Source: a virus
Direction: 5' to 3' (one strand)
DNA length: 64,000 nt
Virus record (IMG/VR): IMGVR_UViG_3300028392_000038
Location: 1 to 64,000 of that record
The position numbers were made by a program, and so were the translations under genes. The notes under the pieces are model-generated. The model was not told the origin of the DNA and ran no database searches. It worked only from the letters and a program-made list of their open reading frames with translations. Positions 15,607 to 41,774 of the stretch are shown here, one piece after another (position 1 is the stretch's first letter; the number at the start of each line of letters is the position of its first letter).

Positions 15607-16272
15607 ATGGAAAATAAAATTGAAAGTAGAATTGATATCATTAACTTTTTATCAGAAAGATTTAACTATAAAAATTATTTAGAAATAGGTCTTAGAGAAC
15701 CATCACATTGCTTTAATCATATTAAATGTGAATCAAAAGATTCGGTAGATCCTGGGTTAGAGACAAATAATAATAGAGCTAAATATAAATACACATCCGA
15801 TAATTTTTTCTCAATGATTGATAATGGTTTATTAGATAAACCTCTTGATTATAAATGGGATATAGTATTTATAGATGGATTACACATTTCTGACCAAGTG
15901 GAAAGAGATATAAACAATGCTCTAAATCATCTTTCAGAAAACGGTAGTATAGTTTTACATGATTGTAATCCACCTACTGAGCATCATGCTAGAGTTTATT
16001 ATAATGATATTAGTACTACTGCAGGAGGTTTGTGGAATGGAACTGTTTGGAAGGCTATATATAAGATGAGATGCACAAGACCAGATTTAGATATTTGTGT
16101 AGTTGATAAGGATTGGGGTTGTGGTATCATCAGAAAAGGAAATCAAACAATTTGTCAATTTAATAATCCATATTTTGACTATGACAAATTTGACAAAAAT
16201 AGAGCAAAAGATTTGAATATAATATCAAATTTGGAATTACCCAATTGGGTAGAAAAACCATTTTATAAATAA
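15607..16272 (+). CDS. Class I SAM-dependent methyltransferase (Methyltransf_24-like, glycan-associated)
   Basis: YLEIG, VDP, DIVFIDGLH and IVLHDC motifs. Confidence 0.8.
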   Translation: MENKIESRIDIINFLSERFNYKNYLEIGLREPSHCFNHIKCESKDSVDPGLETNNNRAKYKYTSDNFFSMIDNGLLDKPLDYKWDIVFIDGLHISDQVERDINNALNHLSENGSIVLHDCNPPTEHHARVYYNDISTTAGGLWNGTVWKAIYKMRCTRPDLDICVVDKDWGCGIIRKGNQTICQFNNPYFDYDKFDKNRAKDLNIISNLELPNWVEKPFYK

Positions 16273-17915
16273 TGAAAAGAAAACTATTATTCATAACACC
16301 ACACTTATCTACGGGTGGTCAACCACAATACTTACTACAAAAAATTAAATCATTTATAAATGAATTTGATATTTATTGTGTTGAGTATACTTATTATGGA
16401 GATGCTTATGTTGTTCAAAGAAATCAAGTTAAAAATTTATTAGGTGATAAGTTTTTTGGTCTATCTTCAGATAAACAATATCTATTAGAAATTATTGATA
16501 AAGTAAATCCGGATATAATACACTTTGAAGAAATACCCGACACTTTTGTTGATGAGTCTATCTTGAAAAAGATATATGATGAAAGCAGAAACTATTATAT
16601 TTTAGCAACTACACATTCATCCAATACTAAACCAGAAAATATTAAATATACAGCTGATAAGTTTATATTAGTATCAGAATGGAGTAAAGGAGTATTTGAC
16701 AATGTATTCAAAGGAAGTATTCCTTGTGATATATGGGAATATCCTATTATAAAAATTGATTATGATAAAGATAAGGCTAAAGAAGAATTAGGATTTGATA
16801 AGGAGTATAAACATATTCTAAATGTTGGTTTATTTACTTCAGGTAAAAATCAAAAACATATAATAGAATTGGCTAAAATTTGTGTAAATGAAAGGATTAA
16901 ATTTCATTTTGTAGGAAATCAGGCTGTTAATTTCAAAGATTATTGGGAACCTCTAATGGTTAATTTACCAGAGAATTGTATAATACATGGTGAGAGAGAT
17001 GATGTTGAAAAATTCTATATGGCTAGTGATTTATTTTACTTTCCATCATTATGGGAACTAAATCCAATCTCTATAAAAGAAGCTCTTAGTTTTAATCTTC
17101 CAATTTTCACAAAAGACTTAGAAACATATCCGAAATATAAAGAAGCTAATTACATAACAGATAATATATCAGCTAATAAAAATATTATATTAGAACACTT
17201 TGGAATCACAATTGAAAATGATTCTATTTGTTTAGTTGTAGCACATGCTGATACAAATTATAGAAAGAAGTTATTAAATGAGTGTTTAGGTTCTATTAAT
17301 TTACCAGTTGTTCTATCTACAAACTATCCAGTAAGTGAAGAAAATCAGTTACTATGTGATTATTATATTTATAATAAAAATAACCCTTTATTATATAAAG
17401 AGGAATTTAGCAAATATAATGTAAGTTATAATTATTGGCACATAGACAACACTGGGAAAAAGACAACAACATCATTTAATTTTGAGCATGGGTATGCTGC
17501 TTACTCTTTAATAAGAGATGGTTTAGAGTTTATAGAAAAACTGGGTTATAAAAAAGTTCACATCATAAACTATGATTATCAAATGTCAAATAAAACACTT
17601 AATGATAATTCTAAATCTTTAGATAATTGTGATATTATTGTTTATCAATATGATGCTAATAATTATGATGGTGATAGTTATTGTTCTGGATTCTTATCAT
17701 CAAGAATGGAACATATACTACCATTTTTCACCAAATTCAAAAGCAGAGAATCTTATTATACATCAGGTGATCCATTTAATATTTTAGAAATAAAGTTAAA
17801 AAAATCTATAGATGCTCAAAATTTAAATATCTATAAAACAGCATTTGATTCTCTAAAAGAAGATAATAAATTAAATCAAGAAGGACTCCTCCAATTTTCA
17901 AAATCAAAAGAATAA
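16272..17915 (+). CDS. GT-B (GT4-like) glycosyltransferase with additional C-terminal domain
   Basis: STGGQPQY, VG.FTSGKNQ and DLFYFPSLWELNPISIKEA (E-x7-E) motifs. Confidence 0.82.
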   Translation: MKRKLLFITPHLSTGGQPQYLLQKIKSFINEFDIYCVEYTYYGDAYVVQRNQVKNLLGDKFFGLSSDKQYLLEIIDKVNPDIIHFEEIPDTFVDESILKKIYDESRNYYILATTHSSNTKPENIKYTADKFILVSEWSKGVFDNVFKGSIPCDIWEYPIIKIDYDKDKAKEELGFDKEYKHILNVGLFTSGKNQKHIIELAKICVNERIKFHFVGNQAVNFKDYWEPLMVNLPENCIIHGERDDVEKFYMASDLFYFPSLWELNPISIKEALSFNLPIFTKDLETYPKYKEANYITDNISANKNIILEHFGITIENDSICLVVAHADTNYRKKLLNECLGSINLPVVLSTNYPVSEENQLLCDYYIYNKNNPLLYKEEFSKYNVSYNYWHIDNTGKKTTTSFNFEHGYAAYSLIRDGLEFIEKLGYKKVHIINYDYQMSNKTLNDNSKSLDNCDIIVYQYDANNYDGDSYCSGFLSSRMEHILPFFTKFKSRESYYTSGDPFNILEIKLKKSIDAQNLNIYKTAFDSLKEDNKLNQEGLLQFSKSKE

Positions 17916-17916
17916 T

Positions 17917-19074
17917 ATGTATAATAATTTAGTTAAAAACACAAGTATAATAAGGAAAAGGAAACCTATAATAAATGTTAATTATATAAAAGGTCCTTTT
18001 GTAGAAATATTAAATTCACCGGGAGATGAATTTGAAGTTTCTTTTATAGATAAAAGGACAAGTAAATTACAACATAGAGGATCAATAACAGAAAATCATT
18101 GGATTAAAGCAAGTAAGTCATATTTCATAGATTGGTCTATATCTATAAATAAGAATAATGGTGAGGAAATCTATAATATAGATTTAGACCTAAAGGATAA
18201 AAGAGTTTTTATATGTTTTGATTCGTCTTCTTTAGGAGATAATTTAGCATGGATTCCATATGTAGATGAGTTTAGAAAGAAACATAATTGTCATGTCATC
18301 TGTTCTACATTTTGGAATAATCTATTTGAGAAAGAATACCCTGAAATAGAATTTATACCTAGAGGATTACCAGCGAACAATATATCAGCCCAATATAATA
18401 TTGGTTGGTATTATGAAGATGGCGAGATTAATACAAATAGTAACCCTACTAATTTCAGATTAAGACCTCTTCAACAAGCAGCTAGTGATATATTAGGATT
18501 AGAACATAAAGAAATTAAAACAAAAATAACTATAGATAATTCTATACAAAAAGAAAATATAGTAAGTATTGCTATTCATGGAACAGCTCAATCAAAATAT
18601 TGGAATAATGAAGAAGGTTGGCAACAAGTGGTTGATTATTTAAAATCCAAAGGATGGAGAGTTATTTTAATTTCTAGAGAAGAAGATGGATATATGGGAA
18701 ATAAACACCCTAATGGTATTGAAAAACATCCACAAGGAAGTATAGAGGAAGTAATAAAAGTACTTCAAAAAAGTAAATTATTTATTGGAATAGGATCTGG
18801 CTTGAGTTGGTTAAGTTGGGCAACAGGAACAACAACTTGTATTATTTCTGGATTTAGTTACCCTTATACAGAAACACTCCAAAACACAATTAGAATAGAA
18901 ACACCTAAAGGAAAATGCACTGGATGTTTTAATGATTTTAAGTTAGATGCTGGTGATTGGAACTGGTGTCCTGTAAATAAAGGAACTGATAAACAATTTG
19001 AGTGTAGTAAGTCAATAACTGGAGAAATGGTAATAGAAAAGATTAAGGATATAATAGAAAAAAACCCACTTTAG
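17917..19074 (+). CDS. Aah/TibC-like autotransporter O-heptosyltransferase homologue
   Basis: SSLGDNLAW.PY...F...H, FIGIGSGLSWLSWA, and the four-Cys motif CTGC...WCP...FEC characteristic of the iron-binding BAHT family. Confidence 0.8.
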   Translation: MYNNLVKNTSIIRKRKPIINVNYIKGPFVEILNSPGDEFEVSFIDKRTSKLQHRGSITENHWIKASKSYFIDWSISINKNNGEEIYNIDLDLKDKRVFICFDSSSLGDNLAWIPYVDEFRKKHNCHVICSTFWNNLFEKEYPEIEFIPRGLPANNISAQYNIGWYYEDGEINTNSNPTNFRLRPLQQAASDILGLEHKEIKTKITIDNSIQKENIVSIAIHGTAQSKYWNNEEGWQQVVDYLKSKGWRVILISREEDGYMGNKHPNGIEKHPQGSIEEVIKVLQKSKLFIGIGSGLSWLSWATGTTTCIISGFSYPYTETLQNTIRIETPKGKCTGCFNDFKLDAGDWNWCPVNKGTDKQFECSKSITGEMVIEKIKDIIEKNPL

Positions 19075-19086
19075 AGTGGGTTTTTT
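19059..19086. terminator. Bidirectional terminator between the two glyco operons
   Basis: AAAAAACCCACT-TTAG-AGTGGGTTTTTT. Confidence 0.85.
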
Positions 19087-19088
19087 AT

Positions 19089-19907
19089 TTAATAATATTT
19101 AAATTCATCATAGAACCATTTGTAATTATTTTTAATCCAATCACAAGCTGCTTGTCCTAAAATTTCTTTATAATCATTTTTAAGAGGTTCTATTTTACTT
19201 TTTATATTATGATCACCATAAATACCATAAACAGAATCATCTTCTACAGTTATTTGTTGAACATTATTAAAGTCATGTGCAAATGGATTAACACCTAAGT
19301 AGTCATAAACTCTATCTATTTCTTTTTGAGGATTTGATGTTAAGTCTTCAAATCTAATAAATAACATTTTTTGATTTATACCTTCTCTAAATACTTGGTA
19401 TAATCTTTCTATTGAAATACCAACAGGTTGACCCGTTGACCAAATATCAATTCTTTTTTCAGTTGTAGTTCCGGTCATTTGAGCATGATTTACAATACCG
19501 GAATCTAAGTGTTGATTCTTTCTAAAGTTTTTCTCCATTGAAGCGAAAATTCCTCTTAAATCTCTAACCATACAAATAATCTTTGGTTCTGGATAAAATG
19601 AATTTAAAAATTGATAATGTACTCCCCAACCTCTACTCTTATCAATAACATATGGTTTATCAGTTATAGAATTAAAGAATCCATTAATACCTGAATTGCA
19701 AAAATTAGCAAAACCTCTCTTCATAAGTTCAGAATCTTGAGCTTTGAATTCTGGTGAGTTTGTGTAATTATTTCTAGCAGCATAAACAAGTTCTAATACC
19801 CCACTAGTAGGAGTTACATAAAATTCAGGATTTTGACCCATTATATTTTGTAGAAGTGTTGATCCTGCTCTAGGCAATGAACTTTGAAAGAATATCTTTT
19901 TTGGCAT
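19089..19907 (-). CDS. PAPS-dependent sulfotransferase family protein
   Basis: LPRAGSTLL (5'-PSB loop), DKSRGW, VRDLRGIFAS (3'-PB) and RFEDL motifs. Confidence 0.82.
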   Translation of the reverse strand: MPKKIFFQSSLPRAGSTLLQNIMGQNPEFYVTPTSGVLELVYAARNNYTNSPEFKAQDSELMKRGFANFCNSGINGFFNSITDKPYVIDKSRGWGVHYQFLNSFYPEPKIICMVRDLRGIFASMEKNFRKNQHLDSGIVNHAQMTGTTTEKRIDIWSTGQPVGISIERLYQVFREGINQKMLFIRFEDLTSNPQKEIDRVYDYLGVNPFAHDFNNVQQITVEDDSVYGIYGDHNIKSKIEPLKNDYKEILGQAACDWIKNNYKWFYDEFKYY

Positions 19908-19908: not shown

Positions 19909-20793
19909 TTATAAATTAATTTTTTGTATTATTAAATTAGGATCAAATATTTCTGATTCTAAAGAAGGGTATTCATGTAAAAGACCTTCAAAACTATAAT
20001 CAAATAAATAACTATCTGGTAGTTTTACAATATCTTTTGGAAGATCCGCTACAATATTTTTGTGTATATTATAACCAAATACCTTAGGTGATGTTCCCAC
20101 CCAAAGAACAACCGATGATAAACCAAGAGCAGCAGAGGCATGTTGTAAACAAGAATCTATTAAAACTCTTTTTTGAGATACCAATAATAAGGAAAATAAT
20201 TCCATATTAGGCATACTATCTGATACAACTTCTACTCCTTGCATAGCAACCGATCCTGCTCTACAAATTTGAATAATATGATAATCATTTCTATAATGGT
20301 TAACTAATATTTCAGATAAGTATACCGGAATATCTCTTGTCCATGAATTAATGTGGGGTTGATTAACCAAAGGACCACCATTGGTCTGAATAACCATTAT
20401 AGGTTTTTCTCTTGTCCACTTATTAATACCTAATTGTTTTTGTTTTGAATTAAATATCAAAGAAGGCATCTCTCCGTTATAATTTAGATTATAAAGTTTA
20501 CACCAATTTTCAATTAGAGGCATTTTTTTATGAATATGATCAGTTGTGAAGTAAGGCTCGTGTTTAAATATTAATGAATCTTTACCATCAATATAATCAT
20601 TATAGAAGTAAGGAGTCATTCCAATTTTATATACTCTATCAATAAATTTTAGATTTAAGAAAACTTCTGCGTAAGCACACACAACTATAAGTTTTCTATC
20701 AGGGTAGTTGTTTTTTATACACTCAGCAACAGCTGTTGAGGCTACATGTTTTCCCAATCCACCTTCAATGTGAAATATTGCAAATTTATCCAT
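19909..20793 (-). CDS. GT9-like glycosyltransferase
   Basis: N-terminal EGGLGK and IDSCLQHASAALG..SVVLW motifs. Confidence 0.7.
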   Translation of the reverse strand: MDKFAIFHIEGGLGKHVASTAVAECIKNNYPDRKLIVVCAYAEVFLNLKFIDRVYKIGMTPYFYNDYIDGKDSLIFKHEPYFTTDHIHKKMPLIENWCKLYNLNYNGEMPSLIFNSKQKQLGINKWTREKPIMVIQTNGGPLVNQPHINSWTRDIPVYLSEILVNHYRNDYHIIQICRAGSVAMQGVEVVSDSMPNMELFSLLLVSQKRVLIDSCLQHASAALGLSSVVLWVGTSPKVFGYNIHKNIVADLPKDIVKLPDSYLFDYSFEGLLHEYPSLESEIFDPNLIIQKINL

Positions 20794-30250: not shown

Positions 30251-31639
30251 TTAATATCTATTTTTTATTGCATTATAATTTTGAAGAACTTCAGCTCCGG
30301 TTAATCCTATTGAATAAACTCTCAATATTGATATTTTACCATTTGCAAATCCATTGGGAAGATTCCAACTAGCACAACCTAAAGTAATCTGAATATTACT
30401 ACTATTAGAAATACTCATTGATCCTGTTTGATATAAAACACTATCTAAATATATTCTAATAACTCCAGATATACTAGTTATCACAAAATGATACCATTGT
30501 CCGGTATTCATTGTTGGAACCGTCGCTGTTACATTTGTTGTTGTGCTATTACTATATATTGCCAATGATGTTGAATTTGGAATATATAAACACCAATCAA
30601 AATTAGATCCATTTGTATCTTTACCTATTAAAATTTGACCGGATGAGAATGAACTAGAATTAAACCAACCTTCTAATGTATAGTCAGTAATTGATAAATC
30701 AAATCCAGAATTATAAGACATTGTACCATAAGTGCTAACACCATCAAATACCAAACTACCACCATTTAATGAGCTATATACAGGACCATTTATTAATATA
30801 ACATCATTGTTATTAACTGTTAAATCATTCCAATTAGTCCCTGTTCCGGGATAAGATGTTGAGTTACCAGCATCTAAATTTAATATTAATCCAGTAGTTA
30901 TTATAGGGGGAATAGATGGAACAATAGGTGAAACTACATCAACAGTTTCTCTAAATCTTCTTACTGTTATATTGTAGTTTTCAGTTATCTCTAATTGAGA
31001 TAATGCTTTATTATAAACTAATAATTGTTCTATATTACCTTTATAGTAAAAAGTAGGTATTCCATTTCCTCTTCCTATTTCCAATGGATTACTTGTCACT
31101 TGAGCATTTATAGTTTGAGATACTGTAGTTGCATCAGAAACACCATTCAAATATATGTTTAATGATGTTCCATCCCAAACAAAAGTAAAGTGATACCAAG
31201 TATCAGTAGTTAAAGTAGTTGCACCTCCTATAGTGTTTATAGTAGCACCATCACTTATTGATCCTCTCAAATTAACACCTGTTGAATCCAAATCTACTTG
31301 GTAATCAAAATCAGATGCTGCGGAACCTATCCTTTTAGCTATAATAGTACCAAAAGAATTAGGAGAACTTGACATTTTTATCCAACCTGATATAGAACCA
31401 GTAGATGTCAACTCTAAACTTGTAGATGAAGACATAGTACCATATCCACTCATACCATCAAATATAATACTATTAGCTAGTGATATAGATGATTGTGTAG
31501 TTGAAAGTGAAGCATTGTTTGAGTTATTAGTTAGGTCATACCAGATATTAACTCCTGAAAATGACTTTTTATTAGGAACATCCAAATACAAGACCAATCC
31601 ATTAGTAACAATAGGTTTAAAAGGATAAGAGGTACTCAT
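30251..31639 (-). CDS. LamG domain protein (2 tandem domains)
   Basis: Two LamG units as above. Confidence 0.85.
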   Translation of the reverse strand: MSTSYPFKPIVTNGLVLYLDVPNKKSFSGVNIWYDLTNNSNNASLSTTQSSISLANSIIFDGMSGYGTMSSSTSLELTSTGSISGWIKMSSSPNSFGTIIAKRIGSAASDFDYQVDLDSTGVNLRGSISDGATINTIGGATTLTTDTWYHFTFVWDGTSLNIYLNGVSDATTVSQTINAQVTSNPLEIGRGNGIPTFYYKGNIEQLLVYNKALSQLEITENYNITVRRFRETVDVVSPIVPSIPPIITTGLILNLDAGNSTSYPGTGTNWNDLTVNNNDVILINGPVYSSLNGGSLVFDGVSTYGTMSYNSGFDLSITDYTLEGWFNSSSFSSGQILIGKDTNGSNFDWCLYIPNSTSLAIYSNSTTTNVTATVPTMNTGQWYHFVITSISGVIRIYLDSVLYQTGSMSISNSSNIQITLGCASWNLPNGFANGKISILRVYSIGLTGAEVLQNYNAIKNRY

Positions 31640-34600: not shown

Positions 34601-37600
34601 AACCAGAAGATCCACTTGTACCAGAAGATCCACTTGTACCAGATGATCCAGAAGTACCTGAACTACCACTTGTACCACTTGATCCAGATGTACCAGAAGA
34701 ACCAGATGTACCACTTGATCCAGATGTACCAGAAGAACCAGAAGAACCAGAAGAACCAGATGTACCACTTGATCCAGAAGAACCAGATGTACCACTTGAT
34801 CCAGAAGTACCAGATGTTCCACTTGATCCAGATGTACCAGAAGAACCAGATGTACCAGATGTACCACTTGATCCAGAAGTACCAGATGTACCACTTGATC
34901 CAGAAGTACCAGATGTTCCACTTGATCCAGATGTACCAGATGTACCACTTGATCCAGAAGTACCTGATGTTCCACTTGATCCAGATGTACCTGATGATCC
35001 AGATGTACCTGATGATCCAGATGTACCTGATGACCCAGAAGTACCAGAAGATCCACTTGTACCTGATGATCCAGATGATCCAGAAGTACCTGATGACCCA
35101 GAAGTACCAGATGATCCAGAAGAACCGCTTGATCCAGAAGAACCGCTTGTACCTGATGATCCACTTGATCCAGATGTACCATTTGATCCATCAATACCAT
35201 TTACACCGCTAATACCAGATGATCCAGATGAACCGCTTGTACCAGAAGAACCAGATGATCCACTTGTACCAGATGATCCACTTGATCCAGAAGTACCAGA
35301 AGATCCACTTGTACCTGATGATCCAGAAGAACCAGATGTACCGGATGTACCTGATGAACCACTTGATCCAGATGTTCCACTTGACCCAGATGTACCAGAA
35401 GAACCACTTGTACCAGATGTTCCACTTGATCCTGAAGATCCACTTGTACCAGAAGAACCGGATGTACCAGAAGTACCAGATGATCCAGAAGTACCAGATG
35501 ACCCACTTGTACCAGAAGTACCCGATGATCCAGAAGACCCACTTGTACCAGAAGTACCCGATGATCCTGCTGATCCACTAGATCCTGCTTGAGCTAAAAG
35601 ATTCCAATATGCCAAATTGATTGGATATGGTCCATATGATGGAGCAATACAAATATAAGATGAACCATTATATTGTACAACATCATTGATGCTAAAACTA
35701 TGGTTTATATCCCAATCTCCATACCAATGAATAGAAGTACCTGAACTACCACTTGTACCAGATGATCCAGAAGTACCAGATGATCCAGAAGTACCAGATG
35801 ATCCAGAAGTACCGGATGATCCAGATGATCCAGATGTACCTGATGATCCACTTGTACCGGATGAACCACTTGTACCAGATGATCCAGAAGTACCAGATGA
35901 TCCAGAAGTACCGGATGATCCAGATGATCCAGATGTACCGGATGAACCACTTGTACCGGATGATCCAGATGATCCAGAAGTACCAGATGTACCGGATGAT
36001 CCAGATGTACCGGATGATCCACTTGTGCCATTAGACCCGTCAATACCATTCACTCCACTGACACCAGAAGATCCAGAAGTACCAGAAGTACCAGATGATC
36101 CACTTGATCCAGAAGTACCAGATGATCCACTTGTACCAGAAGATCCGGAAGTACCTGATGATCCAGAAGTACCAGATGATCCACTTGATCCAGATGTACC
36201 AGATGTACCAGATGATCCAGATGTACCAGAAGATCCAGAAGTACCAGATGAACCAGAAGTACCGGATGTACCTGAAGTACCACTTGATCCAGATGTACCA
36301 GAAGAACCAGATGTCCCACTTGATCCAGATGTACCAGAAGAACCAGAAGAACCAGAAGTACCTGATGATCCACTTGTACCAGAAGATCCAGAAGTACCTG
36401 ATGATCCACTTGTACCGGAACTACCAGATGTACCACTTGATCCAGAAGTACCGGATGAACCACTTGTACCGGAAGAACCACTTGATCCAGATGTACCATT
36501 TGATCCATCAATACCATTCACACCACTAACTCCAGATGATCCAGATGTACCGGATGAACCAGAAGTACCACTTGATCCAGATGTACCAGAAGAACCAGAA
36601 GATCCAGAAGTACCAGATGATCCACTTGTACCAGATGATCCACTTGTACCAGATGATCCACTTGTACCAGATGATCCACTTGTACCAGATGATCCACTTG
36701 TACCAGATGATCCACTTGTACCAGATGATCCACTTGTACCTGATGATCCACTTGTACCTGATGATCCACTTGTACCTGATGATCCACTTGTACCACTTGA
36801 TCCAGAAGTACCTGATGATCCACTTGTACCAGATGATCCACTTGTACCAGATGATCCACTTGTACCAGATGATCCGGAAGTACCAGAAGTACCAGATGAT
36901 CCACTTGTACCTGATGATCCAGATGATCCAGAAGTACCAGATGATCCACTTGTACCAGAAGAACCAGATGATCCAGAAGATCCAGAAGTACCTGATGATC
37001 CGGAAGTACCAGATGATCCACTTGTACCAGATGATCCAGATGATCCAGATGTACCACTTGTACCTGAACTACCAGAAGTACCTGATGATCCACTTGATCC
37101 ACTTGTACCAGAAGATCCACTTGATCCAGAAGTACCGGAAGATCCAGAAGTACCTGAACTACCACTTGTACCTGAACTACCAGAAGTACCTGATGATCCA
37201 GATGAACCACTTGTACCTGATGTTCCAGAAGTACCTGATGATCCACTTGTACCGGAGGATCCACTTGTTCCATTTGATCCATCAATACCATTAACACCGC
37301 TAACTCCAGAGGATCCACTTGTACCACTTGATCCAGATGATCCAGAAGTACCGGATGATCCAGAAGTACCGGATGATCCAGATGAACCACTTGTACCTGA
37401 TGTTCCAGAAGTACCAGATGATCCGGATGTGCCTGAACTACCACTTGTACCACTTGATCCAGAAGTACCAGATGATCCAGAAGATCCAGAAGATCCACTT
37501 GTACCAGATGTACCAGAAGATCCAGAAGTACCTGAACTACCACTTGTACCAGAAGAACCAGATGATCCAGAAGATCCAGAAGTACCTGATGATCCAGATG

Positions 37601-38987
37601 ATCCACTTGTACCACTTGATCCAGAAGTACCACTTGATCCAGAAGTACCGGATGATCCAGAAGTACCGGATGATCCAGAAGTACCGGATGATCCAGAAGT
37701 ACCGGATGATCCAGAAGTACCGGATGATCCAGAAGTACCGGATGATCCAGAAGTACCAGTTGATCCAGAAGTACCAGTTGATCCAGAAGTACCACTTGAT
37801 CCAGAAGTACCACTTGATCCAGAAGTACCACTTGATCCAGAAGTACCACTTGATCCAGAAGTACCGGATGATCCACTTGTACCATTAGACCCGTCAATAC
37901 CATTCACTCCACTGACACCAGAAGAACCAGAAGTACCAGATGATCCAGATGAACCAGAAGTACCGGATGATCCACTTGTACCGGATGACCCAGAAGTACC
38001 TGATGATCCAGAAGTACCAGAAGAACCAGAAGATCCGCTTGTACCACTTGTACCACTTGTACCTGATGATCCAGAAGTACCGGATGATCCAGAAGTACCT
38101 GATGATCCACTTGATCCAGAAGTACCTGATGATCCACTTGATCCAGAAGTACCTGATGATCCACTTGATCCAGATGTACCTGATGATCCACTTGATCCAG
38201 ATGTACCTGATGATCCACTTGTACCTGATGTTCCAGAAGTACCAGATGATCCGGATGTGCCTGAACTACCACTTGTACCTGATGTTCCAGAAGTACCAGA
38301 TGATCCGGATGTGCCTGAACTACCACTTGTACCGGATGTACCTGAACTACCACTTGTACCGGATGTACCACTTGTACCGGATGATCCAGATGTTCCACTT
38401 GTACCGGATGATCCGCTTGTACCACTTGATCCAGAAGAACCAGATGTTCCAGATGATCCAGAAGTACCTGAACTACCACTTGTACCAGAAGAACCAGATG
38501 ATCCAGATGATCCAGAAGTACCTGAACTACCACTTGATCCAGATGTACCATTTGATCCATCAATACCATTCACACCACTAACTCCAGAAGAACCAGATGT
38601 TCCAGAAGTACCTGAAGTACCTGAAGTACCAGAAGTACCAGAAGTACCAGAAGTACCTGATGATCCATCAAGACCACCTATTAACCAATTAGAACCATTA
38701 CTAGTTAAATATAAACTATCATATTGAGAGAGTGTTTTTGTTAAAGATCCATCTATAGTTTGAGAAGAAGTAGTATTAACTGTAATAACACCACTACCAC
38801 TATTTTTTACAATATAAAACTTACCTGCTACACCAACTGATGTTGGTAAAGTAACATTAAATGTCCCAGAACAATCTATAAAATGATCATTAACTCCTAT
38901 TACATAGGCTGTTATTGTTGAATAATAAGGGAACGTAATTCCACCTAAAGATATAATACCGCGTCTAGTGACGAATTCATTAGCCAT
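31641..38987 (-). CDS. Giant proline-free Gly-X-Y (GSS/GTS) fibre protein with a central CBM5/12-like module and a fibre-type C-terminal domain
   Basis: 2448 aa, of which about 2100 are G-S/T-S triplets. W.G.W....F..NDVV.Y.GSSY module at about 35590-35735. C-terminal KSFDIVHP...L.YGSLEGPE.GVYYRG domain. Confidence 0.8.
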   Translation of the reverse strand: MANEFVTRRGIISLGGITFPYYSTITAYVIGVNDHFIDCSGTFNVTLPTSVGVAGKFYIVKNSGSGVITVNTTSSQTIDGSLTKTLSQYDSLYLTSNGSNWLIGGLDGSSGTSGTSGTSGTSGTSGTSGTSGSSGVSGVNGIDGSNGTSGSSGSSGTSGSSGSSGSSGTSGSSGTSGSSGTSGSSGSSGTSGSSGTSGTSGSSGTSGTSGTSGSSGTSGTSGSSGTSGSSGTSGTSGTSGSSGTSGSSGTSGTSGTSGSSGTSGSSGSSGTSGSSGSSGTSGSSGSSGTSGSSGSSGTSGSSGTSGSSGTSGTSGTSGSSGSSGTSGSSGTSGSSGTSGSSGTSGSSGSSGTSGSSGVSGVNGIDGSNGTSGSSGTSGSSGTSGSSGTSGSSGTSGSSGTSGSTGTSGSTGTSGSSGTSGSSGTSGSSGTSGSSGTSGSSGTSGSSGTSGSSGTSGSSGTSGSSGSSGTSGSSGSSGSSGTSGSSGTSGSSGTSGTSGSSGSSGSSGTSGSSGTSGSSGTSGSSGTSGTSGTSGSSGSSGTSGSSGTSGSSGSSGTSGSSGVSGVNGIDGSNGTSGSSGTSGSSGTSGTSGTSGSSGSSGTSGSSGTSGSSGTSGSSGTSGSSGSSGTSGSSGSSGTSGSSGTSGTSGSSGSSGTSGSSGTSGSSGTSGSSGSSGSSGTSGSSGTSGSSGSSGTSGSSGTSGTSGSSGTSGSSGTSGSSGTSGSSGTSGSSGTSGSSGTSGSSGTSGSSGTSGSSGTSGSSGTSGSSGTSGSSGTSGSSGTSGSSGTSGSSGTSGSSGSSGTSGSSGTSGSSGTSGSSGVSGVNGIDGSNGTSGSSGSSGTSGSSGTSGSSGTSGSSGTSGSSGTSGSSGTSGSSGTSGSSGSSGTSGSSGTSGSSGTSGSSGTSGTSGTSGSSGTSGSSGTSGSSGTSGTSGSSGSSGTSGSSGTSGSSGTSGSSGTSGSSGSSGTSGTSGSSGVSGVNGIDGSNGTSGSSGTSGSSGTSGTSGSSGSSGTSGSSGTSGSSGSSGTSGSSGTSGSSGTSGSSGTSGSSGTSGSSGSSGTSGSSGTSGSSGTSGSSGTSGSSGTSIHWYGDWDINHSFSINDVVQYNGSSYICIAPSYGPYPINLAYWNLLAQAGSSGSAGSSGTSGTSGSSGSSGTSGTSGSSGTSGSSGTSGTSGSSGTSGSSGSSGTSGTSGSSGTSGSSGTSGSSGSSGTSGTSGSSGSSGTSGSSGTSGSSGSSGTSGSSGSSGTSGSSGSSGISGVNGIDGSNGTSGSSGSSGTSGSSGSSGSSGSSGTSGSSGTSGSSGSSGTSGSSGTSGSSGTSGSSGTSGSSGTSGSSGTSGTSGSSGTSGTSGSSGTSGTSGSSGTSGTSGSSGTSGTSGSSGTSGSSGTSGTSGSSGTSGSSGSSGTSGSSGSSGSSGTSGSSGTSGSSGTSGSSGTSGSSGTSGSSGTSGSSGTSGSSGSSGTSGSSGTSGSSGSSGTSGSSGVSGVNGIDGSNGTSGSSGTSGSSGTSGSSGTSGTSGSSGTSGSSGTSGSSGTSGSSGTSGSSGTSGSSGTSGTSGSSGVSGVNGIDGSNGTSGSSGTSGSSGTSGSSGSSGSSGSSGTSGTSGSSGTSGSSGSSGTSGSSGTSGTSGSSGSSGSSGSSGSSGTSGSSGTSGTSGSSGSSGISGVNGIDGSNGTSGSSGTSGSSGSSGSSGTSGSSGTSGSSGTSGSSGTSGSSGTSGSSGTSGSSGSSGSSGTSGSSGTSGSSGSSGSSGTSGSSGTSGSSGTSGSSGISGVNGIDGSNGTSGSSGTSGSSGTSGTSGSSGTSGSSGTSGSSGTSGSSGTSGSSGTSGTSGSSGTSGSSGTSGSSGTSGTSGSSGTSGTSGSSGTSGSSGISGVNGIDGSNGTSGSSGTSGSSGTSGSSGTSGSSGSSGSSGSSGTSGLSGIDGTDGTNGTSGSSGSSGTSGSSGTSGSSGTSGSSGTSGSSGTSGSSGTSGSSGTSGSSGTSGSSGTSGSSGTSGSSGTSGSSGTSGSSGTSGSSGTSGSSGTSGSSGTSGSSGTSGSSGTSGSSGTSGSSGTSGSSGISGVNGIDGSNGTSGSSGTSGSSGTSGSSGTSGSSGTSGSSGTSGSSGTSGSSGTSGSSGTSGSSGTSGSSGTSGSSGTSGSSGTSGSSGTSGSSGTSGSSGTSGSSGTSGSSGTSGSSGISGVNGIDGSNGTSGSSGTSGSSGTSGSSGTSGSSGTSGLSGVNGTDGTNGTSGSSGSSGSSGSSGSSGSSGSSGSSGSNGSSGSNGSSGSSGSSVSLTGVTNYTPYYTSSTTLSSTSSIWDDGVNVGIGLVPSTGSPFKVDVLGDVNVQGKFFAISKSFDIVHPSDPTKRLTYGSLEGPEYGVYYRGKLNGHIIELPYYWVDLVDNSTISVELTPFGSYQRLFVEKVEDNKVYVKSDNGGYPNCYYVVYAERKDIPKIIIEK
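32150..38670 (-). repeat. 9/18-bp degenerate coding microrepeat (GSS/GTS) with about 15 interspersed GVSGVNGIDGSNG-type units
   Basis: Directly visible in the sequence. Confidence 0.95.
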
Positions 38988-39113
38988 CTATCAATTTTTT
39001 TCTTTTTTCACTCTCCAAAAGAAAAGTCGTTTAAGCAGAATAACTCCACTTGTTGTATATATAAAATTGTAAATGCTTATTTTAGGAATATAGTTGAAAA
39101 TTAAGTAGAAAAA

Positions 39114-41774
39114 TTAAATAATTCTTATACCCGTATCTACTGACCATGTACCAGAAGTTACAACAGATTGAAGTGTTACATTACCAGCAATTATAACAAC
39201 ATTAAACTCAATTCCTATTGTAGAACCATTCAAGTCAGGTGTAGATGTATCAGTAAAGGCAACATTAGTTCCGTTCCAAGTAGCCATTACAGTACCAGTT
39301 CTTCTTTGATTAGAAGAACCAGAAAGATGATAATCAAAATAAACACCATTACCAGCAGAAGATGTAAATGAAACTATTGAAGTTGTACCAGATGTAAGAC
39401 CTGATGTAGCACTAGTATTAAGAATAAGTTGACCGGAAACTGAGAATGTAAACCCATCATATGTCAATCCAGTATTTGCTAATGCTGAATTTGTAGATGA
39501 TCCAGTAGCTGTTAATATTCTATAATCGGATGGATTTATAATAGAATTGAATCCTGTTCCAGAAGTACCACTAGTTCCTGATGTACCTGATGATCCACTT
39601 GTTCCAGAAGATCCACTTGTACCATTAGAACCATCTGTGCCATTAACACCAGATAAACCGGAAGTACCAGAAGATCCGCTTGTACCTGAAGATCCACTTG
39701 TACCTGAAGATCCACTTGATCCAGATGTTCCACTTGTACCAGATGTACCACTTGTACCAGATGATCCGGAAGTACCAGAACTACCACTTGTACCAGATGA
39801 TCCGGAAGTACCAGAACTACCACTTGTACCAGAAGATCCAGATGTACCAGAAGATCCAGAAGTACCAGAAGTACCAGAAGATCCAGAAGTACCAGAACTA
39901 CCACTTGTACCAGAAGATCCAGATGTACCAGAAGATCCAGATGTACCAGAAGATCCAGATGTACCAGAAGATCCAGATGTACCAGAAGATCCAGATGTAC
40001 CAGAAGATCCAGATGTACCATTAGATCCATCAATACCATTAACACCACTAATTCCGGATGATCCAGAAGTACCAGATGATCCAGAAGTACCAGATGATCC
40101 AGAAGTACCACTTGATCCAGAAGTACCAGATGATCCAGAAGTACCAGATGATCCAGAAGTACCACTTGATCCACTTGTACCCGAACTACCACTTGTACCT
40201 GAGCTACCGGATGATCCGCTTGTACCACTTGACCCAGAAGTACCAGAACTACCACTTGTACCAGATGATCCAGAAGTACCGGATGTACCAGAAGATCCAC
40301 TTGATCCACTTGTACCAGATGATCCAGAAGTACCAGATGATCCAGAAGTACCAGATGATCCAGAAGATCCAGAAGATCCAGAAGATCCAGATGTGCCTGA
40401 ACTACCAGATGTACCAGAAGATCCAGATGATCCACTTGTACCTGAGCTACCACTTGTACCTGAGCTACCGGATGTACCTGAGCTACCGGATGTACCGGAT
40501 GATCCGCTTGTACCACTTGATCCAGAAGTACCAGAAGATCCACTTGTGCCACTTGATCCAGAAGTACCAGAAGATCCACTTGTACCTGAACTACCACTCG
40601 TGCCGGATGATCCACTTGTACCTGAACTACCAGATGTACCAGAAGACCCACTTGTACCACTTGTACCACTTGATCCAGAAGTACCGGATGATCCGGATAT
40701 AACCATTAGGTCCCAATTAGGATTTACATCAGGTGTAGAAGCACCAGCCAATATATTAGCAGTCGCTATATATACAGAATATGGAGAACCATATTTAACA
40801 ACATCATTTATACCATAAGGTAGTGAAGATGACCAAAGACCTAGCCAATTTATATCTAAACCATTAAACCCAGATGATCCACTTGTACCAGAACTACCAG
40901 AACTACCAGAAGATCCACTTGTACCAGAAGATCCACTTGTACCTGATGATCCAGATGTGCCACTTGTACCTGATGATCCAGATGTGCCACTTGTACCTGA
41001 TGATCCAGATGTACCAGATGATCCAGATGATCCAGATGATCCAGAAGATCCAGAAGATCCACTTGATCCAGAAGATCCATTAGAACCATCTGTACCATTA
41101 ACACCAGATAAACCGGAAGTACCGGATGACCCAGAAGATCCACTTGACCCACTTGATCCTGATGATCCAGAAGTACCTGATGATCCACTTGACCCACTTG
41201 ATCCTGATGATCCAGAAGTACCTGATGATCCACTTGTTCCAGATGATCCAGTTGATCCTGATGATCCACTTGATCCACTTGATCCTGATGATCCACTTGT
41301 ACCAGAAGATCCTGATGATCCACTTGATCCTGATGATCCACTTGATCCACTTGTTCCAGATGATCCACTTGATCCACTTGATCCTGATGATCCAGTTGAT
41401 CCTGATGATCCACTTGATCCACTTGTTCCAGATGATCCACTTGATCCAGATGATCCACTTGATCCACTTGATCCTGATGATCCAGATGTACCTGATGATC
41501 CAGGTATTGATGCTGTCCAAGTAGCAACACCATTAGTATCACTAATTAAAATATAATTAGAACCTTGAGTACCATCTTGTAATTGAAATGCCCCAGATTG
41601 TGTTGAATATATATGGACTTTTGTGTTAGGAGAAGCAGTACCAATACCTAGTCTGTTATTCGTGAAATCCCAATGTAATTGATTAGAATTCTCACTTACA
41701 GTGCTATTAGTTCCTAAGAATAAAATTGACCCTTGTGTGCCTCCTCTAACTTGTTTGATATTCAACTGACCCAT
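39114..41774 (-). CDS. Second Gly-X-Y (GSS/GTS) fibre protein with CBM5/12-like module
   Basis: 886 aa; WLGLW...Y.INDVVKY module at about 40700-40855. Confidence 0.8.
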   Translation of the reverse strand: MGQLNIKQVRGGTQGSILFLGTNSTVSENSNQLHWDFTNNRLGIGTASPNTKVHIYSTQSGAFQLQDGTQGSNYILISDTNGVATWTASIPGSSGTSGSSGSSGSSGSSGSSGSSGTSGSSGSSGSTGSSGSSGSSGSSGTSGSSGSSGSSGSSGSSGTSGSSGSSGSSGSSGSTGSSGTSGSSGTSGSSGSSGSSGSSGTSGSSGSSGSSGSSGSSGTSGLSGVNGTDGSNGSSGSSGSSGSSGSSGSSGSSGTSGSSGTSGTSGSSGTSGTSGSSGTSGSSGTSGSSGSSGSSGTSGSSGFNGLDINWLGLWSSSLPYGINDVVKYGSPYSVYIATANILAGASTPDVNPNWDLMVISGSSGTSGSSGTSGTSGSSGTSGSSGTSGSSGTSGSSGTSGSSGTSGSSGTSGSSGTSGSSGTSGSSGTSGSSGTSGSSGTSGSSGTSGSSGSSGTSGSSGTSGSSGSSGSSGSSGTSGSSGTSGSSGTSGSSGSSGTSGTSGSSGTSGSSGTSGSSGTSGSSGSSGTSGSSGTSGSSGTSGSSGTSGSSGTSGSSGTSGSSGTSGSSGTSGSSGISGVNGIDGSNGTSGSSGTSGSSGTSGSSGTSGSSGTSGSSGTSGSSGTSGSSGTSGSSGTSGTSGSSGTSGSSGTSGSSGTSGSSGTSGSSGTSGSSGTSGTSGTSGTSGSSGSSGTSGSSGTSGSSGTSGLSGVNGTDGSNGTSGSSGTSGSSGTSGTSGTSGTGFNSIINPSDYRILTATGSSTNSALANTGLTYDGFTFSVSGQLILNTSATSGLTSGTTSIVSFTSSAGNGVYFDYHLSGSSNQRRTGTVMATWNGTNVAFTDTSTPDLNGSTIGIEFNVVIIAGNVTLQSVVTSGTWSVDTGIRII
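39555..41505 (-). repeat. GSS/GTS coding microrepeat
   Basis: Directly visible in the sequence. Confidence 0.95.

What the first reader, a model, noticed from the sequence alone, without database searches (positions are those of the whole stretch)
15607..41774. Phage-encoded virion glycosylation/sulfation system next to giant Ser/Thr-rich fibres
Seen: five modifying enzymes (SAM methyltransferase, GT4-like, Aah/TibC-like protein O-glycosyltransferase, sulfotransferase, GT9-like) in two convergent operons. They directly abut four proteins carrying well over a thousand Ser/Thr residues in GSS/GTS or TISGG repeats. Known: Aah/TibC transfer heptose to Ser of bacterial adhesins; Ser-Gly repeats bearing sulfated glycans are the architecture of animal proteoglycans such as serglycin. 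Inference: the phage builds a sulfated, methylated glycan on its own fibres, a mucin/proteoglycan-like coat. This could stabilise the proline-free fibres, shield the virion, or act as polysaccharide bait for glycan-foraging Bacteroidota.
Basis: partly seen in the sequence, partly recalled or inferred. Interest (0 to 1): 0.88.

Follow-up and report, generated by a model that had tools for sequence, protein, structure and literature searches.

The report
Phage tail-fibre glycosylation and sulfation genes
A very large uncultured freshwater phage encodes giant, proline-free collagen-like and beta-roll tail fibres next to two small enzyme sets, one led by a true relative of the bacterial adhesin-glycosylating enzyme TibC and one by a sulfotransferase; comparison with hundreds of other phages suggests these enzymes decorate the phage's own fibres, but no experiment has shown this.

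Summary
Window 15.6-41.8 kb carries five enzymes in two convergent units that meet at a bidirectional terminator hairpin. They abut four fibre proteins with about 2,510 Ser/Thr.

- **Fibres:** three are collagen-type Gly-X-Y proteins. The largest has 2,127 residues in two unbroken runs with no Pro, Lys, Arg or Glu. The fourth is a UspA1/YadA-head-like beta-roll.
- **Enzymes:** the 385-aa protein passes the NCBIfam Aah/TibC equivalog cut-off and keeps all four iron-finger cysteines. The unnamed 294-aa protein has a GT9 fold.
- **Two cassettes:** across IMG/VR the enzymes form two independent cassettes, both next to fibre genes.
  - Methyltransferase+GT4+TibC-like, often fused into one protein, tracks collagen-like genes: 20/41 records against 2/50 controls.
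  - GT9-fold+sulfotransferase(+APS kinase) tracks beta-roll fibres: 37/80 loci against 1/80.

Best reading (about 0.6): cytoplasmic decoration of the phage's own fibres, probably as two separate tracks rather than one sulfated, methylated glycan. No modification has been shown. Modification of the host envelope remains the main rival.

This scan reached the same TibC-collagen reading on at least seven other phage genomes. The sulfotransferase-beta-roll link is the addition here.

The parts
15607..16272 (+). SAM-dependent methyltransferase (Methyltransf_24), probable sugar O-methyltransferase
   Evidence: Pfam E 5e-8. The same domain type is fused to GT4 and to the TibC-like domain in other phages, for example L097 (1301 aa) and L043 (724 aa). 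As a separate gene it was found only in the near relative. PHROG gives weak 'DNA methyltransferase' hits.
16272..17915 (+). GT4-type glycosyltransferase, 547 aa, with an unassigned C-terminal half
   Evidence: Glycos_transf_1 at E 9e-16, residues 165-293. A homologue lies in 74 of 80 loci that hold the TibC-like gene. It is fused to the TibC-like gene in several phages.
17917..19074 (+). Aah/TibC-family (BAHT) protein O-heptosyltransferase homologue
   Evidence: TIGR04414 at 279.9 bits, cut-off 200. TibC 4RB4 at E 1e-58, with CxxC, WCP and FEC aligned to TibC Cys339/342/358/370 (PMC4358343). The cysteine motif is kept in 80 of 81 phage homologues.
19059..19086 (.). Bidirectional terminator-like hairpin between the two convergent units
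   Evidence: 12-bp stem flanked by an A run and a T run. It overlaps the last codons and stop (19072-19074) of the + unit and ends 3 bases before the stop codon (19089-19091) of the - unit.
19089..19907 (-). PAPS-type sulfotransferase
   Evidence: Sulfotransfer_3 at E 5e-19. Weak NoeE match. PRxGS and RDxR motifs are invariant in 31 orthologues. The model (pLDDT 91) is closest to TPST1/2, then CurM ST and heparan 3-OST. At least 198 viral homologues, many at 62-80% identity.
19909..20793 (-). GT9-fold glycosyltransferase of an undescribed family (u294)
   Evidence: No Pfam hit. AlphaFold pLDDT 88.7. Foldseek 3TOV E 2e-11, then WaaF, TibC and WaaC. It lies immediately upstream of the sulfotransferase, on the same strand, in 47 of 76 loci.
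20831..23017 (-). Mosaic fibre protein P0003 with two short G-S-S collagen-like runs and globular domains
   Evidence: Pfam Collagen E 3e-28. Tail-fibre PHROGs. Runs at residues 67-105 and 378-533.
23080..27231 (-). Beta-roll fibre P0004 with 52 copies of an 18-residue STISGG..NTISG unit
   Evidence: UspA1 head 3PR7 at E 2e-12. Period 18 in 43 of 51 spacings. Related fibres sit beside the sulfotransferase in 37 of 80 loci, against 1 of 80 TibC-selected loci.
27247..27900 (-). ConA-like lectin/glucanase (Laminin_G_3) protein
   Evidence: Pfam E 3e-14. PHROG 8510 'virion structural protein'.
27900..29972 (-). Protein with three Laminin_G_3 domains
   Evidence: Pfam E 1e-47, 3 stretches. The same LamG-triple plus collagen layout occurs in L064 and G001.
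30251..31639 (-). Protein with two Laminin_G_3 domains
   Evidence: Pfam E 1.5e-42.
31641..38987 (-). Giant collagen-like fibre P0001 (2448 aa)
   Evidence: Pfam Collagen E 6e-284. Gly-X-Y runs at residues 105-1085 and 1135-2280. X is 50% Ser and 44% Thr; Y is 93% Ser. No Pro, Lys, Arg or Glu in 2,127 residues. Tail-fibre PHROGs E 3e-288.
39114..41774 (-). Collagen-like fibre P0002 (886 aa)
   Evidence: Pfam Collagen E 1e-83. Runs at residues 92-307 and 361-741.
41892..47942 (-). Four further Ser/Thr-rich ORFs (376, 843, 336 and 340 aa) on the same strand; probable fibre or baseplate-associated proteins, function not established
   Evidence: Same strand with short gaps. Ser+Thr fraction 0.19-0.29. 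Only PHROGs of unknown function.

Best explanation
The window is the head-proximal part of a huge phage of the 'Mahaphage' type. It holds a 32-kb variable fibre module.

My reading is that the five enzymes act in the infected cell's cytoplasm on the phage's own fibre proteins before assembly, in two tracks.

- **Track A (methyltransferase, GT4, TibC-like BAHT).** The BAHT puts a first sugar, most likely a heptose from ADP-heptose, on Ser/Thr of the proline-free G-[S/T]-S collagen-like fibres. GT4 extends it and the methyltransferase O-methylates it. Dense O-glycosylation would then supply the stiffness or triple-helix stability that these sequences cannot get from proline or Lys-Glu/Asp salt bridges.
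- **Track B (GT9-fold enzyme, sulfotransferase).** These two genes end the 29-kb fibre operon. The GT9-fold enzyme adds a sugar to the beta-roll fibre (or the mosaic fibre next to it), and the sulfotransferase sulfates it using PAPS.

Shown: the enzyme families, the gene order, and the cross-phage linkage.

Inferred: the acceptors, the sugars, the order of steps and the structural role.
For: 1. **Protein-type enzyme.** The 385-aa enzyme is an equivalog-level member of the protein O-heptosyltransferase family and not an LPS heptosyltransferase. TIGR04414 scores 280 bits, against 28 bits or less for RfaC/RfaQ models. The iron-finger cysteines, which in TibC take part in substrate recognition (PMC4358343), are kept.
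2. **Domain fusions.** Other phages fuse the parts. Examples are GT4+GT9+Methyltransf_24 in L097, GT4+Methyltransf_24 in L043, and GT4+...+TibC in the cultured Microcystis phage Mel-JY01.
3. **Donor supply.** T4-like phages place a PfkB kinase and cytidylyltransferase-like genes (HldE-like functions) right after the cassette. APS kinase genes follow the sulfotransferase in 35 of 80 loci. The 385-kb near relative has a canonical APS kinase.
4. **Position.** A large fibre gene lies within 6 kb in 40 of 40 TibC loci and 45 of 49 sulfotransferase loci that have full flanks.
5. **Co-occurrence of BAHT and collagen.**
   - Collagen repeats occur in 20 of 41 BAHT-carrying viral records, against 2 of 50 sulfotransferase-selected controls (Fisher p 6e-7).
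   - Those two control records are the only controls with a full BAHT.
   - Among records of 50 kb or more, 13 of 15 BAHT records have collagen.
   - 9 of 12 BAHT clusters at 70% identity include a collagen-positive record.
   - In reverse, 10 of 44 records with G-[ST]-[ST] collagen hold a BAHT over the cut-off, against 2 of 50 controls (p 0.011).
6. **Same convergent layout in other lineages.** It is seen in G064 (1497-aa fusion enzyme 80 bp from a 2803-aa collagen gene) and in L064.
7. **Beta-roll link.** Beta-roll fibres lie beside the sulfotransferase in 37 of 80 loci against 1 of 80 (p 1.5e-12), spread over 10 of 18 sulfotransferase clusters.
8. **Co-transcription.** The GT9-fold and sulfotransferase genes are the last two genes of the fibre operon.
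9. **Need for a stabiliser.** The collagen runs lack every known stabiliser. Published work shows that Thr glycosylation can turn a non-helical Gly-Pro-Thr peptide into a triple helix (PMC11923368).
Against: - No chemical evidence of any modification exists for this or any related phage.
- The co-occurrence is partial in both directions. About half of the BAHT records show no collagen, though most are small fragments. About three quarters of the G-[ST]-[ST] collagen records show no BAHT.
- In 37 T4-like loci the BAHT cassette sits next to a non-collagen 2338-aa fibre.
- Records are phylogenetically related, so the Fisher tests overstate independence.
- Tail-fibre regions are known hypervariable islands that collect unrelated genes (PMC7029224).
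- Known BAHT acceptors are beta-helical autotransporter passengers, not triple helices.
- No ADP-heptose pathway gene was found on this contig or in the near relative.
- The two closest complete relatives lack the whole module at the syntenic site.
Confidence: 0.6

Rival explanations
1. The enzymes remodel host envelope glycans (LPS core or O-chain, or capsule) during infection. This could block superinfection by competing phages. They lie in the fibre region only because it is a hypervariable island.
For: - This is the published reading for glycosyltransferases and rfaE in the tail-fibre hypervariable region of pelagimyophages (PMC7029224).
- GT4, GT8, GT9 and HtrL-type families and NoeE-like sulfotransferases are typical of LPS and oligosaccharide pathways.
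- The module is absent from the closest relatives, as expected for an accessory island.
Against: - The lead enzyme meets the equivalog cut-off of the protein-modifying BAHT family and keeps its iron finger, while LPS heptosyltransferase models score 28 bits or less.
- No flippase, polymerase, ligase or membrane-anchored transferase was seen among the recurrent neighbours.
- BAHT presence tracks collagen-like genes across the whole record, not just fibre regions in general. The controls were also fibre-adjacent loci.
Confidence: 0.2
2. The sulfotransferase acts directly on the protein. It would sulfate Tyr, or Ser/Thr, of the Tyr-rich beta-roll fibre rather than a sugar. This variant of the best explanation can coexist with Track A.
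For: - The closest solved sequences and folds are tyrosylprotein sulfotransferases (phmmer E 0.01; Foldseek E 5e-9).
- The variable positions of the 18-residue beta-roll unit are dominated by Tyr, 79 in the protein.
- The sulfotransferase tracks beta-roll fibres, not glycan-rich collagen.
Against: - TM-scores are about 0.5 for TPST, CurM and heparan 3-OST alike, so the fold does not discriminate.
- The TPST catalytic Glu position aligns to an invariant Pro-Thr-Ser-Gly in the phage family.
- A GT9-fold enzyme is the sulfotransferase's most constant partner (47 of 76 loci). A weak NoeE match also points to a carbohydrate acceptor.
Confidence: 0.15
3. The G-S/T-S arrays are unmodified flexible spacers or ordinary collagen-like fibres. 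The enzymes would then serve another target, such as the capsid, sheath, other virion proteins or a small molecule.
For: - G-[ST]-[ST] collagen-like genes are abundant in viral contigs, and most sampled records show no BAHT.
- In mycobacteriophages the known glycosylated virion proteins are capsid and tail-tube subunits (Freeman 2023, cited in PMC12619734).
- Tail sheath genes neighbour both cassettes in several loci.
Against: - Fragmentary records undercount BAHT.
- BAHT and collagen co-occur far above control.
- The enzyme genes directly abut fibre genes in several independent lineages.
Confidence: 0.05

Closest known systems
TibC-TibA and Aah-AIDA-I of E. coli (bacterial autotransporter heptosyltransferases, BAHT; TIGR04414; PDB 4RAP/4RB4)
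   Same: The 385-aa enzyme is a sequence-level member: 280 bits against a 200-bit cut-off, and E 1e-58 to TibC. It has the four iron-finger cysteines. It is a soluble cytoplasmic enzyme encoded next to a very large, repetitive, Ser-rich surface protein.
   Different: The neighbours are phage fibres, either collagen-like Gly-X-Y proteins or a trimeric-adhesin-like beta-roll. They are not monomeric beta-helical autotransporter passengers, and no translocator domain is present. The enzyme is joined to GT4 and methyltransferase partners that Aah and TibC lack. The sugar donor and acceptor are untested.
Glycosylated collagen-like spore-surface proteins (B. anthracis BclA; C. difficile BclA3 with its adjacent glycosyltransferase SgtA)
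   Same: A collagen-like, Thr/Ser-rich filament is O-glycosylated in the cytoplasm by enzymes encoded nearby. BclA carries a methylated terminal sugar (PMC6222408; BclA glycosylation is cited in PMC11923368).
   Different: Those enzyme families are different (rhamnosyl and GlcNAc transferases). Those filaments are GPT-type with proline. They are bacterial spore structures, not virions.
Mycobacteriophage virion glycosylation (Freeman et al. 2023, Cell Host Microbe; PMC10527164, cited)
   Same: Phage-encoded glycosyltransferases decorate the phage's own structural proteins.
   Different: The targets there are the C-termini of capsid and tail-tube subunits. The enzymes are unrelated. No heptosyltransferase, sulfotransferase or collagen-like acceptor is involved. 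That system is shown experimentally and this one is not.
'LPS-related' genes in the tail-fibre hypervariable region of pelagimyophages and cyanomyophages (Zaragoza-Solas et al. 2020, PMC7029224)
   Same: The genomic phenomenon is the same: glycosyltransferases and rfaE-type genes interleaved with tail-fibre, collagen, ConA-like and YadA-like genes in large aquatic myoviruses.
   Different: That paper read them as modifiers of the host O-chain. Here the lead enzyme is identified as a protein-modifying BAHT, and its presence is shown to track collagen-like genes.
Moraxella UspA1 / Yersinia YadA head domains (trimeric autotransporter adhesins)
   Same: P0004's repeats align to the UspA1 head beta-roll (3PR7, E 2e-12).
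   Different: The period is 18 residues rather than about 14. There is no stalk or membrane anchor. It sits in a phage fibre context. The variable positions are rich in Tyr, Cys and His.

Membership tests
BAHT (Aah/TibC O-heptosyltransferase, TIGR04414) | Score above the curated equivalog cut-off | tested here: met
   279.9 bits against a cut-off of 200, covering model positions 25-374 of 374.
BAHT (Aah/TibC O-heptosyltransferase, TIGR04414) | Four iron-coordinating cysteines (TibC Cys339, 342, 358, 370) | tested here: met
   CTGC, WCP and FEC align to TibC's CYGC, WCP and FEC. Residue numbers are from PMC4358343. The motif is present in 80 of 81 phage homologues.
BAHT (Aah/TibC O-heptosyltransferase, TIGR04414) | N-terminal beta-barrel domain (TibC residues 1-97; Pfam TibC_1st) | tested here: inconclusive
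   The TIGR04414 alignment starts at residue 35 and phmmer to TibC starts at residue 59. PF21129 was not reported for the window protein. It is weak in the Mel-JY01 homologue (E 5e-4).
BAHT (Aah/TibC O-heptosyltransferase, TIGR04414) | Dodecameric ring assembly | not testable with these tools
   Not attempted.
BAHT (Aah/TibC O-heptosyltransferase, TIGR04414) | Transfers heptose from ADP-heptose to Ser of an adjacent-encoded autotransporter passenger | not testable with these tools
   No autotransporter is present and the neighbours are phage fibres. HldE-like kinase and nucleotidyltransferase genes follow the cassette in T4-like phages. None was found on this contig or in the near relative.
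Collagen triple-helix repeat proteins / phage collagen-like tail fibres (PF01391; PHROG 6320, 5073, 1806) | Gly at every third residue over long uninterrupted runs; family score over cut-off | tested here: met
   Runs of 981 and 1146 residues in P0001. Pfam 916.8 bits against 27.2. PHROG tail-fibre families E 3e-288.
Collagen triple-helix repeat proteins / phage collagen-like tail fibres (PF01391; PHROG 6320, 5073, 1806) | Known helix stabilisers (Pro/Hyp, or Lys-Gly-Glu/Asp salt bridges) | tested here: not met
   0 Pro, 0 Lys, 0 Arg, 0 Glu and 17 Asp in 2,127 Gly-X-Y residues of P0001. P0002 is similar. The stabiliser rules are from PMC11923368. Triple-helix formation is therefore unproven.
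PAPS-dependent sulfotransferases (PF13469 Sulfotransfer_3) | Family score over cut-off; 5'-phosphosulfate loop and 3'-phosphate motif; sulfotransferase fold | tested here: met
   69.9 bits against 27. PRxGS (R13, G15, S16) and R115-D116-x-R118 are invariant in 31 sequences. The model, pLDDT 91.1, matches TPST, CurM and 3-OST folds. The acceptor was not determined.
GT9 (heptosyltransferase-like GT-B) for the 294-aa protein | GT9 sequence signature / GT-B fold | tested here: inconclusive
   The fold criterion is met: 3TOV E 2e-11, TMq 0.69; WaaF, TibC and WaaC follow. The sequence model is not met: the window protein has no Pfam hit, and an orthologue reaches only E 4e-4, below the cut-off.
Trimeric autotransporter adhesins (YadA/UspA1 type) for P0004 | Head beta-roll repeats plus coiled-coil stalk and C-terminal membrane anchor | tested here: not met
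   Only the head-like repeats match (3PR7, E 2e-12). There is no Pfam anchor or stalk hit. It works like a TAA head but is not a TAA.

The most novel reading that the evidence does not exclude
Large aquatic phages run two separate fibre-decoration tracks.

- In the first, a BAHT-led, methylated O-glycan replaces proline and salt bridges as the stabiliser of collagen-like fibres. If helical, the 2,127 Gly-X-Y residues of P0001 would span about 0.6 micrometres.
- In the second, a GT9-fold enzyme plus a PAPS-dependent sulfotransferase, with phage-encoded APS kinases, make beta-roll tail fibres the first sulfated component known in any bacterial virus. The sulfate could sit on a sugar or directly on tyrosine.

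If so, the 'LPS genes' in the tail-fibre islands of marine and freshwater myoviruses would largely be virion-glycosylation genes.
Probability: 0.35. Interest if true: 0.85.

Novelty: new variant of a known kind. Interest (0 to 1): 0.72.

Why it matters
Virion glycosylation by phage enzymes has been demonstrated only for capsid and tail-tube proteins of mycobacteriophages. To my knowledge and in the searches run here, neither sulfation of a phage particle nor a phage use of the adhesin-glycosylating TibC family has been described.

The two cassettes are common. At least 300 and 198 viral contigs carry them. They lie in the host-recognition region, so they may shape adsorption, host range, particle stability and particle stickiness in lakes and oceans.

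The result would also change how the many 'LPS-type auxiliary metabolic genes' of aquatic myoviruses are read.

For protein chemistry, these fibres would be a natural test of whether O-glycosylation alone can hold together a triple helix made only of Gly, Ser and Thr.

A cultured phage, Microcystis phage Mel-JY01, carries the BAHT fusion a few kilobases downstream of a G-T/S-S collagen-like gene. That makes the idea directly testable.

Tried and rejected
Weakened. P0004 resembles trimeric-adhesin heads, not AIDA/TibA helices. Beta-roll fibres lie beside full BAHT genes in only 1 of 80 loci. They do go with a shorter BAHT-related 305-aa enzyme that lacks the iron finger.
- **One five-enzyme pathway.** Not supported. 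The cassettes occur independently.
- **Methyltransferase as a DNA methyltransferase.** PHROG hits are weak (E 1e-8). Fusions to GT4 and GT9, and RMNT_CmcI-type matches elsewhere, favour sugar O-methylation.
- **The search for related loci with P0002.** It avoided the repeats and returned one irrelevant locus.
- **Pathway genes on this contig.** Searches for APS kinase, PfkB, ATP sulfurylase and cytidylyltransferase found nothing. The contig is about half a genome by CheckV, so absence is not shown.
- **Literature.** Searches for phage TibC, phage sulfotransferase with tail fibre, and Mel-JY01 found no relevant paper.
- **Not run.** No complex prediction, because enzyme-substrate pairs are a poor use of that tool.

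Full report
**What the window is**

The window is the first 64 kb of a 116-kb viral contig. It encodes a T4-type portal, a prohead protease and a major head protein. The portal is 87% and 82% identical to two uncultured phage genomes of 635 and 642 kb, LR745206 and LR756502. It is about 50% identical to further genomes of 636-735 kb. A 385-kb IMG/VR contig (G001, CheckV 95% complete) is a much closer relative of the region under study, with 89-94% identity in the enzymes.

Gene order matches the two complete relatives from the portal to about 15.5 kb. After that it diverges. Neither relative has the 15.6-47.9 kb module at that place. The module is therefore a variable island.

**The observation**

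On the + strand:
- a Methyltransf_24 methyltransferase;
- a GT4 glycosyltransferase;
- a 385-aa protein that scores 279.9 bits on NCBIfam TIGR04414, 'autotransporter strand-loop-strand O-heptosyltransferase', cut-off 200. It matches TibC (PDB 4RB4/4RAP) at E 1e-58.

The four cysteines that bind iron in TibC (Cys339, 342, 358 and 370; PMC4358343) are aligned to cysteines in the phage protein. LPS heptosyltransferase models score 28 bits or less.

On the - strand:
- a Sulfotransfer_3 enzyme, E 5e-19;
- a 294-aa protein with no Pfam hit. Its AlphaFold model (pLDDT 88.7) matches GT9 enzymes best (3TOV E 2e-11; WaaF, TibC, WaaC).

The two units converge on a hairpin at 19059-19086 that has A and T tracts on either side.

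**The fibres**

The - strand unit is a 29-kb run of closely spaced genes from 47942 down to 19089. It contains all the fibre genes and ends with the GT9-fold gene and the sulfotransferase.

P0001 (2448 aa), P0002 (886 aa) and P0003 (728 aa) are collagen-type Gly-X-Y proteins:
- Pfam Collagen gives E 6e-284, 1e-83 and 3e-28.
- They match PHROG tail-fibre families.
- P0001 has two unbroken Gly-X-Y runs of 981 and 1146 residues, separated by a 49-residue knot.
- In P0001, X is Ser or Thr (94%) and Y is Ser (93%).
- Its 2,127 repeat residues contain no Pro, Lys, Arg or Glu.

P0004 (1383 aa) has 52 copies of an 18-residue unit. It aligns to the head beta-roll of the trimeric adhesin UspA1 (3PR7, E 2e-12).

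Three proteins with one, three and two ConA-like Laminin_G_3 domains lie between the fibres.

The four repeat proteins hold about 2,510 Ser/Thr. The DNA repeats are only 60-71% matched, so gross mis-assembly is unlikely. Exact lengths remain uncertain. The near relative's contig starts inside its collagen gene and has the same order: collagen, three LamG proteins, then the beta-roll fibre, with the GT9-fold and sulfotransferase genes further along.

**Comparative genomics: two cassettes**

The TibC-like protein has at least 300 relatives in IMG/VR and the sulfotransferase at least 198. I took 80 loci for each, with 10-kb flanks, and clustered all ORFs.

*Cassette A.* GT4 accompanies the TibC-like gene in 74 of 80 loci. 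The parts are often fused into one polypeptide:
- GT4 + GT9 + Methyltransf_24/rhamnosyl-O-methyltransferase in L097 (1301 aa);
- GT4 + Methyltransf_24 in L043 (724 aa);
- GT4 + ... + TibC in the cultured Microcystis phage Mel-JY01 (1226 aa);
- further fusions with FkbM methyltransferase and GT2 domains.

So the window's + strand trio is a recurring functional unit. In T4-like phages it is preceded by a 2338-aa tail fibre with a Gp53-like C-terminus. It is followed by a PfkB kinase and cytidylyltransferase-like genes, the two HldE functions, and it lies next to terminase and portal genes.

*Cassette B.* The GT9-fold gene lies immediately upstream of the sulfotransferase in 47 of 76 loci. An APS kinase lies immediately downstream in 24 of 79 loci, and somewhere in 35 of 80 loci. 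The usual order is: beta-roll fibre(s), GT8, a 305-aa BAHT-related enzyme without the iron finger, the GT9-fold enzyme, the sulfotransferase, then two APS-kinase-like genes. This often sits beside the tail sheath gene.

The near relative G001 has a canonical APS kinase (220 bits) elsewhere in its genome.

**Linkage to fibres**

In loci with at least 6 kb on both sides, a large fibre gene lies within 6 kb in 40 of 40 TibC loci and 45 of 49 sulfotransferase loci. Median distances are about 0.8 and 1.3 kb.

The partners differ between the cassettes. Beta-roll fibres occur in 37 of 80 sulfotransferase loci but in only 1 of 80 TibC loci (p 1.5e-12). They are spread over 10 of 18 sulfotransferase clusters at 80% identity.

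Collagen-like genes go with the BAHT:

| Comparison | BAHT or collagen set | Control set | Test |
|---|---|---|---|
| Records with collagen repeats (E <= 1e-9) | 20 of 41 BAHT-carrying records | 2 of 50 sulfotransferase-selected records | Fisher p 6e-7 |
| Records >= 50 kb with collagen | 13 of 15 | 2 of 24 | not tested |
| Records with a BAHT over the cut-off | 10 of 44 records with G-[ST]-[ST] collagen | 2 of 50 | Fisher p 0.011 |

- The two positive controls are exactly the two controls that also hold a full-score BAHT.
- 9 of 12 BAHT clusters at 70% identity include a collagen-positive record. The other three consist only of fragments of 44 kb or less.
- For the reverse test I drew 120 viral stretches with G-[ST]-[ST] repeats using a degenerate DNA pattern.
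- Only 1 of the 44 collagen records holds the sulfotransferase.
- The collagen genes next to BAHT cassettes are mostly proline-free and 60-99% Ser/Thr at X and Y.

The window's convergent layout recurs in other lineages. In G064 a 1497-aa fusion enzyme ends 80 bp from a 2803-aa G-T-N/S collagen gene. In the 288-kb contig behind L064, GT4 and TibC face a collagen gene and three LamG genes.

Among finished genomes, the TibC-like gene is present in LR756501 and Mel-JY01, and both have G-T/S-S collagen. LR756502 lacks the enzyme, and its collagen-like genes are of a different, Ala/Ile/Gln-rich type. LR756504 has the enzyme but shows no collagen hit.

**Interpretation**

The most economical reading is that both cassettes decorate fibre proteins in the cytoplasm. 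The reasons are:
- The lead enzyme belongs to a family known only to glycosylate proteins encoded next door.
- Its partners are fused to it.
- Donor-supply genes travel with both cassettes.
- The genes sit within or against fibre operons in many lineages.

The G-S/T-S runs lack every known triple-helix stabiliser. Published work shows that glycosylating Thr converts a random-coil Gly-Pro-Thr peptide into a triple helix, and BclA and a vent-worm collagen use glycosylated Thr (PMC11923368). A structural role for the glycan is therefore plausible, but it is inferred.

The sulfate acceptor is open. The sulfotransferase model (pLDDT 91.1) is nearest to tyrosylprotein sulfotransferases, and the beta-roll's variable positions are Tyr-rich. 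Against that, the fold scores do not discriminate, and the constant GT9-fold partner points to a sugar.

**Rivals and limits**

The published reading of such genes in pelagimyophage fibre islands is host O-chain modification (PMC7029224). It cannot be excluded.

The limits of the evidence are:
- Co-occurrence is partial in both directions.
- Records are fragmentary and related to one another.
- Known BAHT acceptors are beta-helices, not triple helices.
- No heptose pathway gene was found on this contig or in its near relative.
- No chemical evidence exists.

**Prior knowledge**

Searches found no paper on phage TibC-like enzymes or on phage sulfotransferases linked to fibres. Virion glycosylation is established for mycobacteriophage capsid and tail-tube proteins (Freeman 2023, cited).

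Within this scan, the same BAHT-collagen reading was reached independently on at least seven other phage genomes. My tests here agree with it. The addition here is the separate sulfotransferase/GT9-fold cassette and its link to beta-roll fibres. The co-occurrence data speak against that for the full BAHT.

**Verdict**

This is a new variant of a known kind, phage virion glycosylation. It is widespread and testable, and it is so far supported only by sequence and comparative evidence.

Noticed in passing
window 23080-27231 (P0004): In the 18-residue beta-roll unit the scaffold positions are nearly invariant. Five of the six variable positions (6, 7, 13, 14, 16) are dominated by Tyr, Cys and His, and position 17 is mostly Gln/Asn; the protein holds 79 Tyr and 35 Cys. 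This suggests a stacked aromatic or metal-binding or disulfide ladder on the surface.
   Followed up: partly
window 35586-35732 and 40695-40853: Non-collagen knots of about 50 residues interrupt the Gly-X-Y runs of P0001 and P0002. They share a W..W....Y...DVV.Y.G..Y pattern with a weak CBM_5_12 match (E 0.006). They may be re-nucleation or sugar-binding nodes.
   Followed up: no
window: N-terminus of P0002 (about 41500-41650), middle of P0003 (about 21890-22040), N-terminus of P0004 (about 26780-26930): A module of about 55 residues, of the type VGIGT..P..KLH[IV]Y.TQS.AF.LQDG..G..Y.L.SD..GV..W, recurs just before the repeat arrays of three different fibres. The fibres look like mosaics built from shuffled modules.
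   Followed up: no
L003 (Microcystis phage Mel-JY01, PP395634) 1-3052: GenBank annotates Pro-rich ORFs on the minus strand at 1-651 and 739-2298. The plus strand there is a 1016-codon open frame of G-T/S-S collagen type that runs into the annotated CDS 2519-3052. This looks like a strand mis-annotation of a collagen-like fibre gene, cut by the record's start.
   Followed up: partly
G001:C1:179434-180202 (L299, L301): In the 385-kb near relative a canonical APS kinase (220 bits) lies beside a small CTP_transf_like nucleotidyltransferase ORF. No Pfam ATP-sulfurylase was found. The neighbour could be a minimal sulfate adenylyltransferase, but this was not tested.
   Followed up: no
L099 12721-15623 and relatives (clusters c28, c32): Sulfotransferase loci also carry a PF11397 'GlcNAc' transferase and an HtrL_YibB protein. 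From my own knowledge, not checked here, PF11397 is the family of the cytoplasmic Skp1 hydroxyproline GlcNAc-transferase, a protein-modifying enzyme.
   Followed up: no
G126, G114, G097 (records behind L057, L040, L020): BAHT-carrying phage records contain collagen-like open frames of 4590, 3735 and 2865 codons. These are longer than the window's 2448-aa fibre.
   Followed up: no
window 11005-11826 and 57110-58018: Two HNH/homing-endonuclease genes (PHROG 4645 and 559). The first lies between conserved head-module genes.
   Followed up: no
window 15562-47942 against L006 and L007: The whole enzyme-and-fibre module is missing at the syntenic position in LR745206 and LR756502. Those genomes carry other large genes or go straight on to replication genes. 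This marks a fibre-island insertion point directly after the head module.
   Followed up: partly
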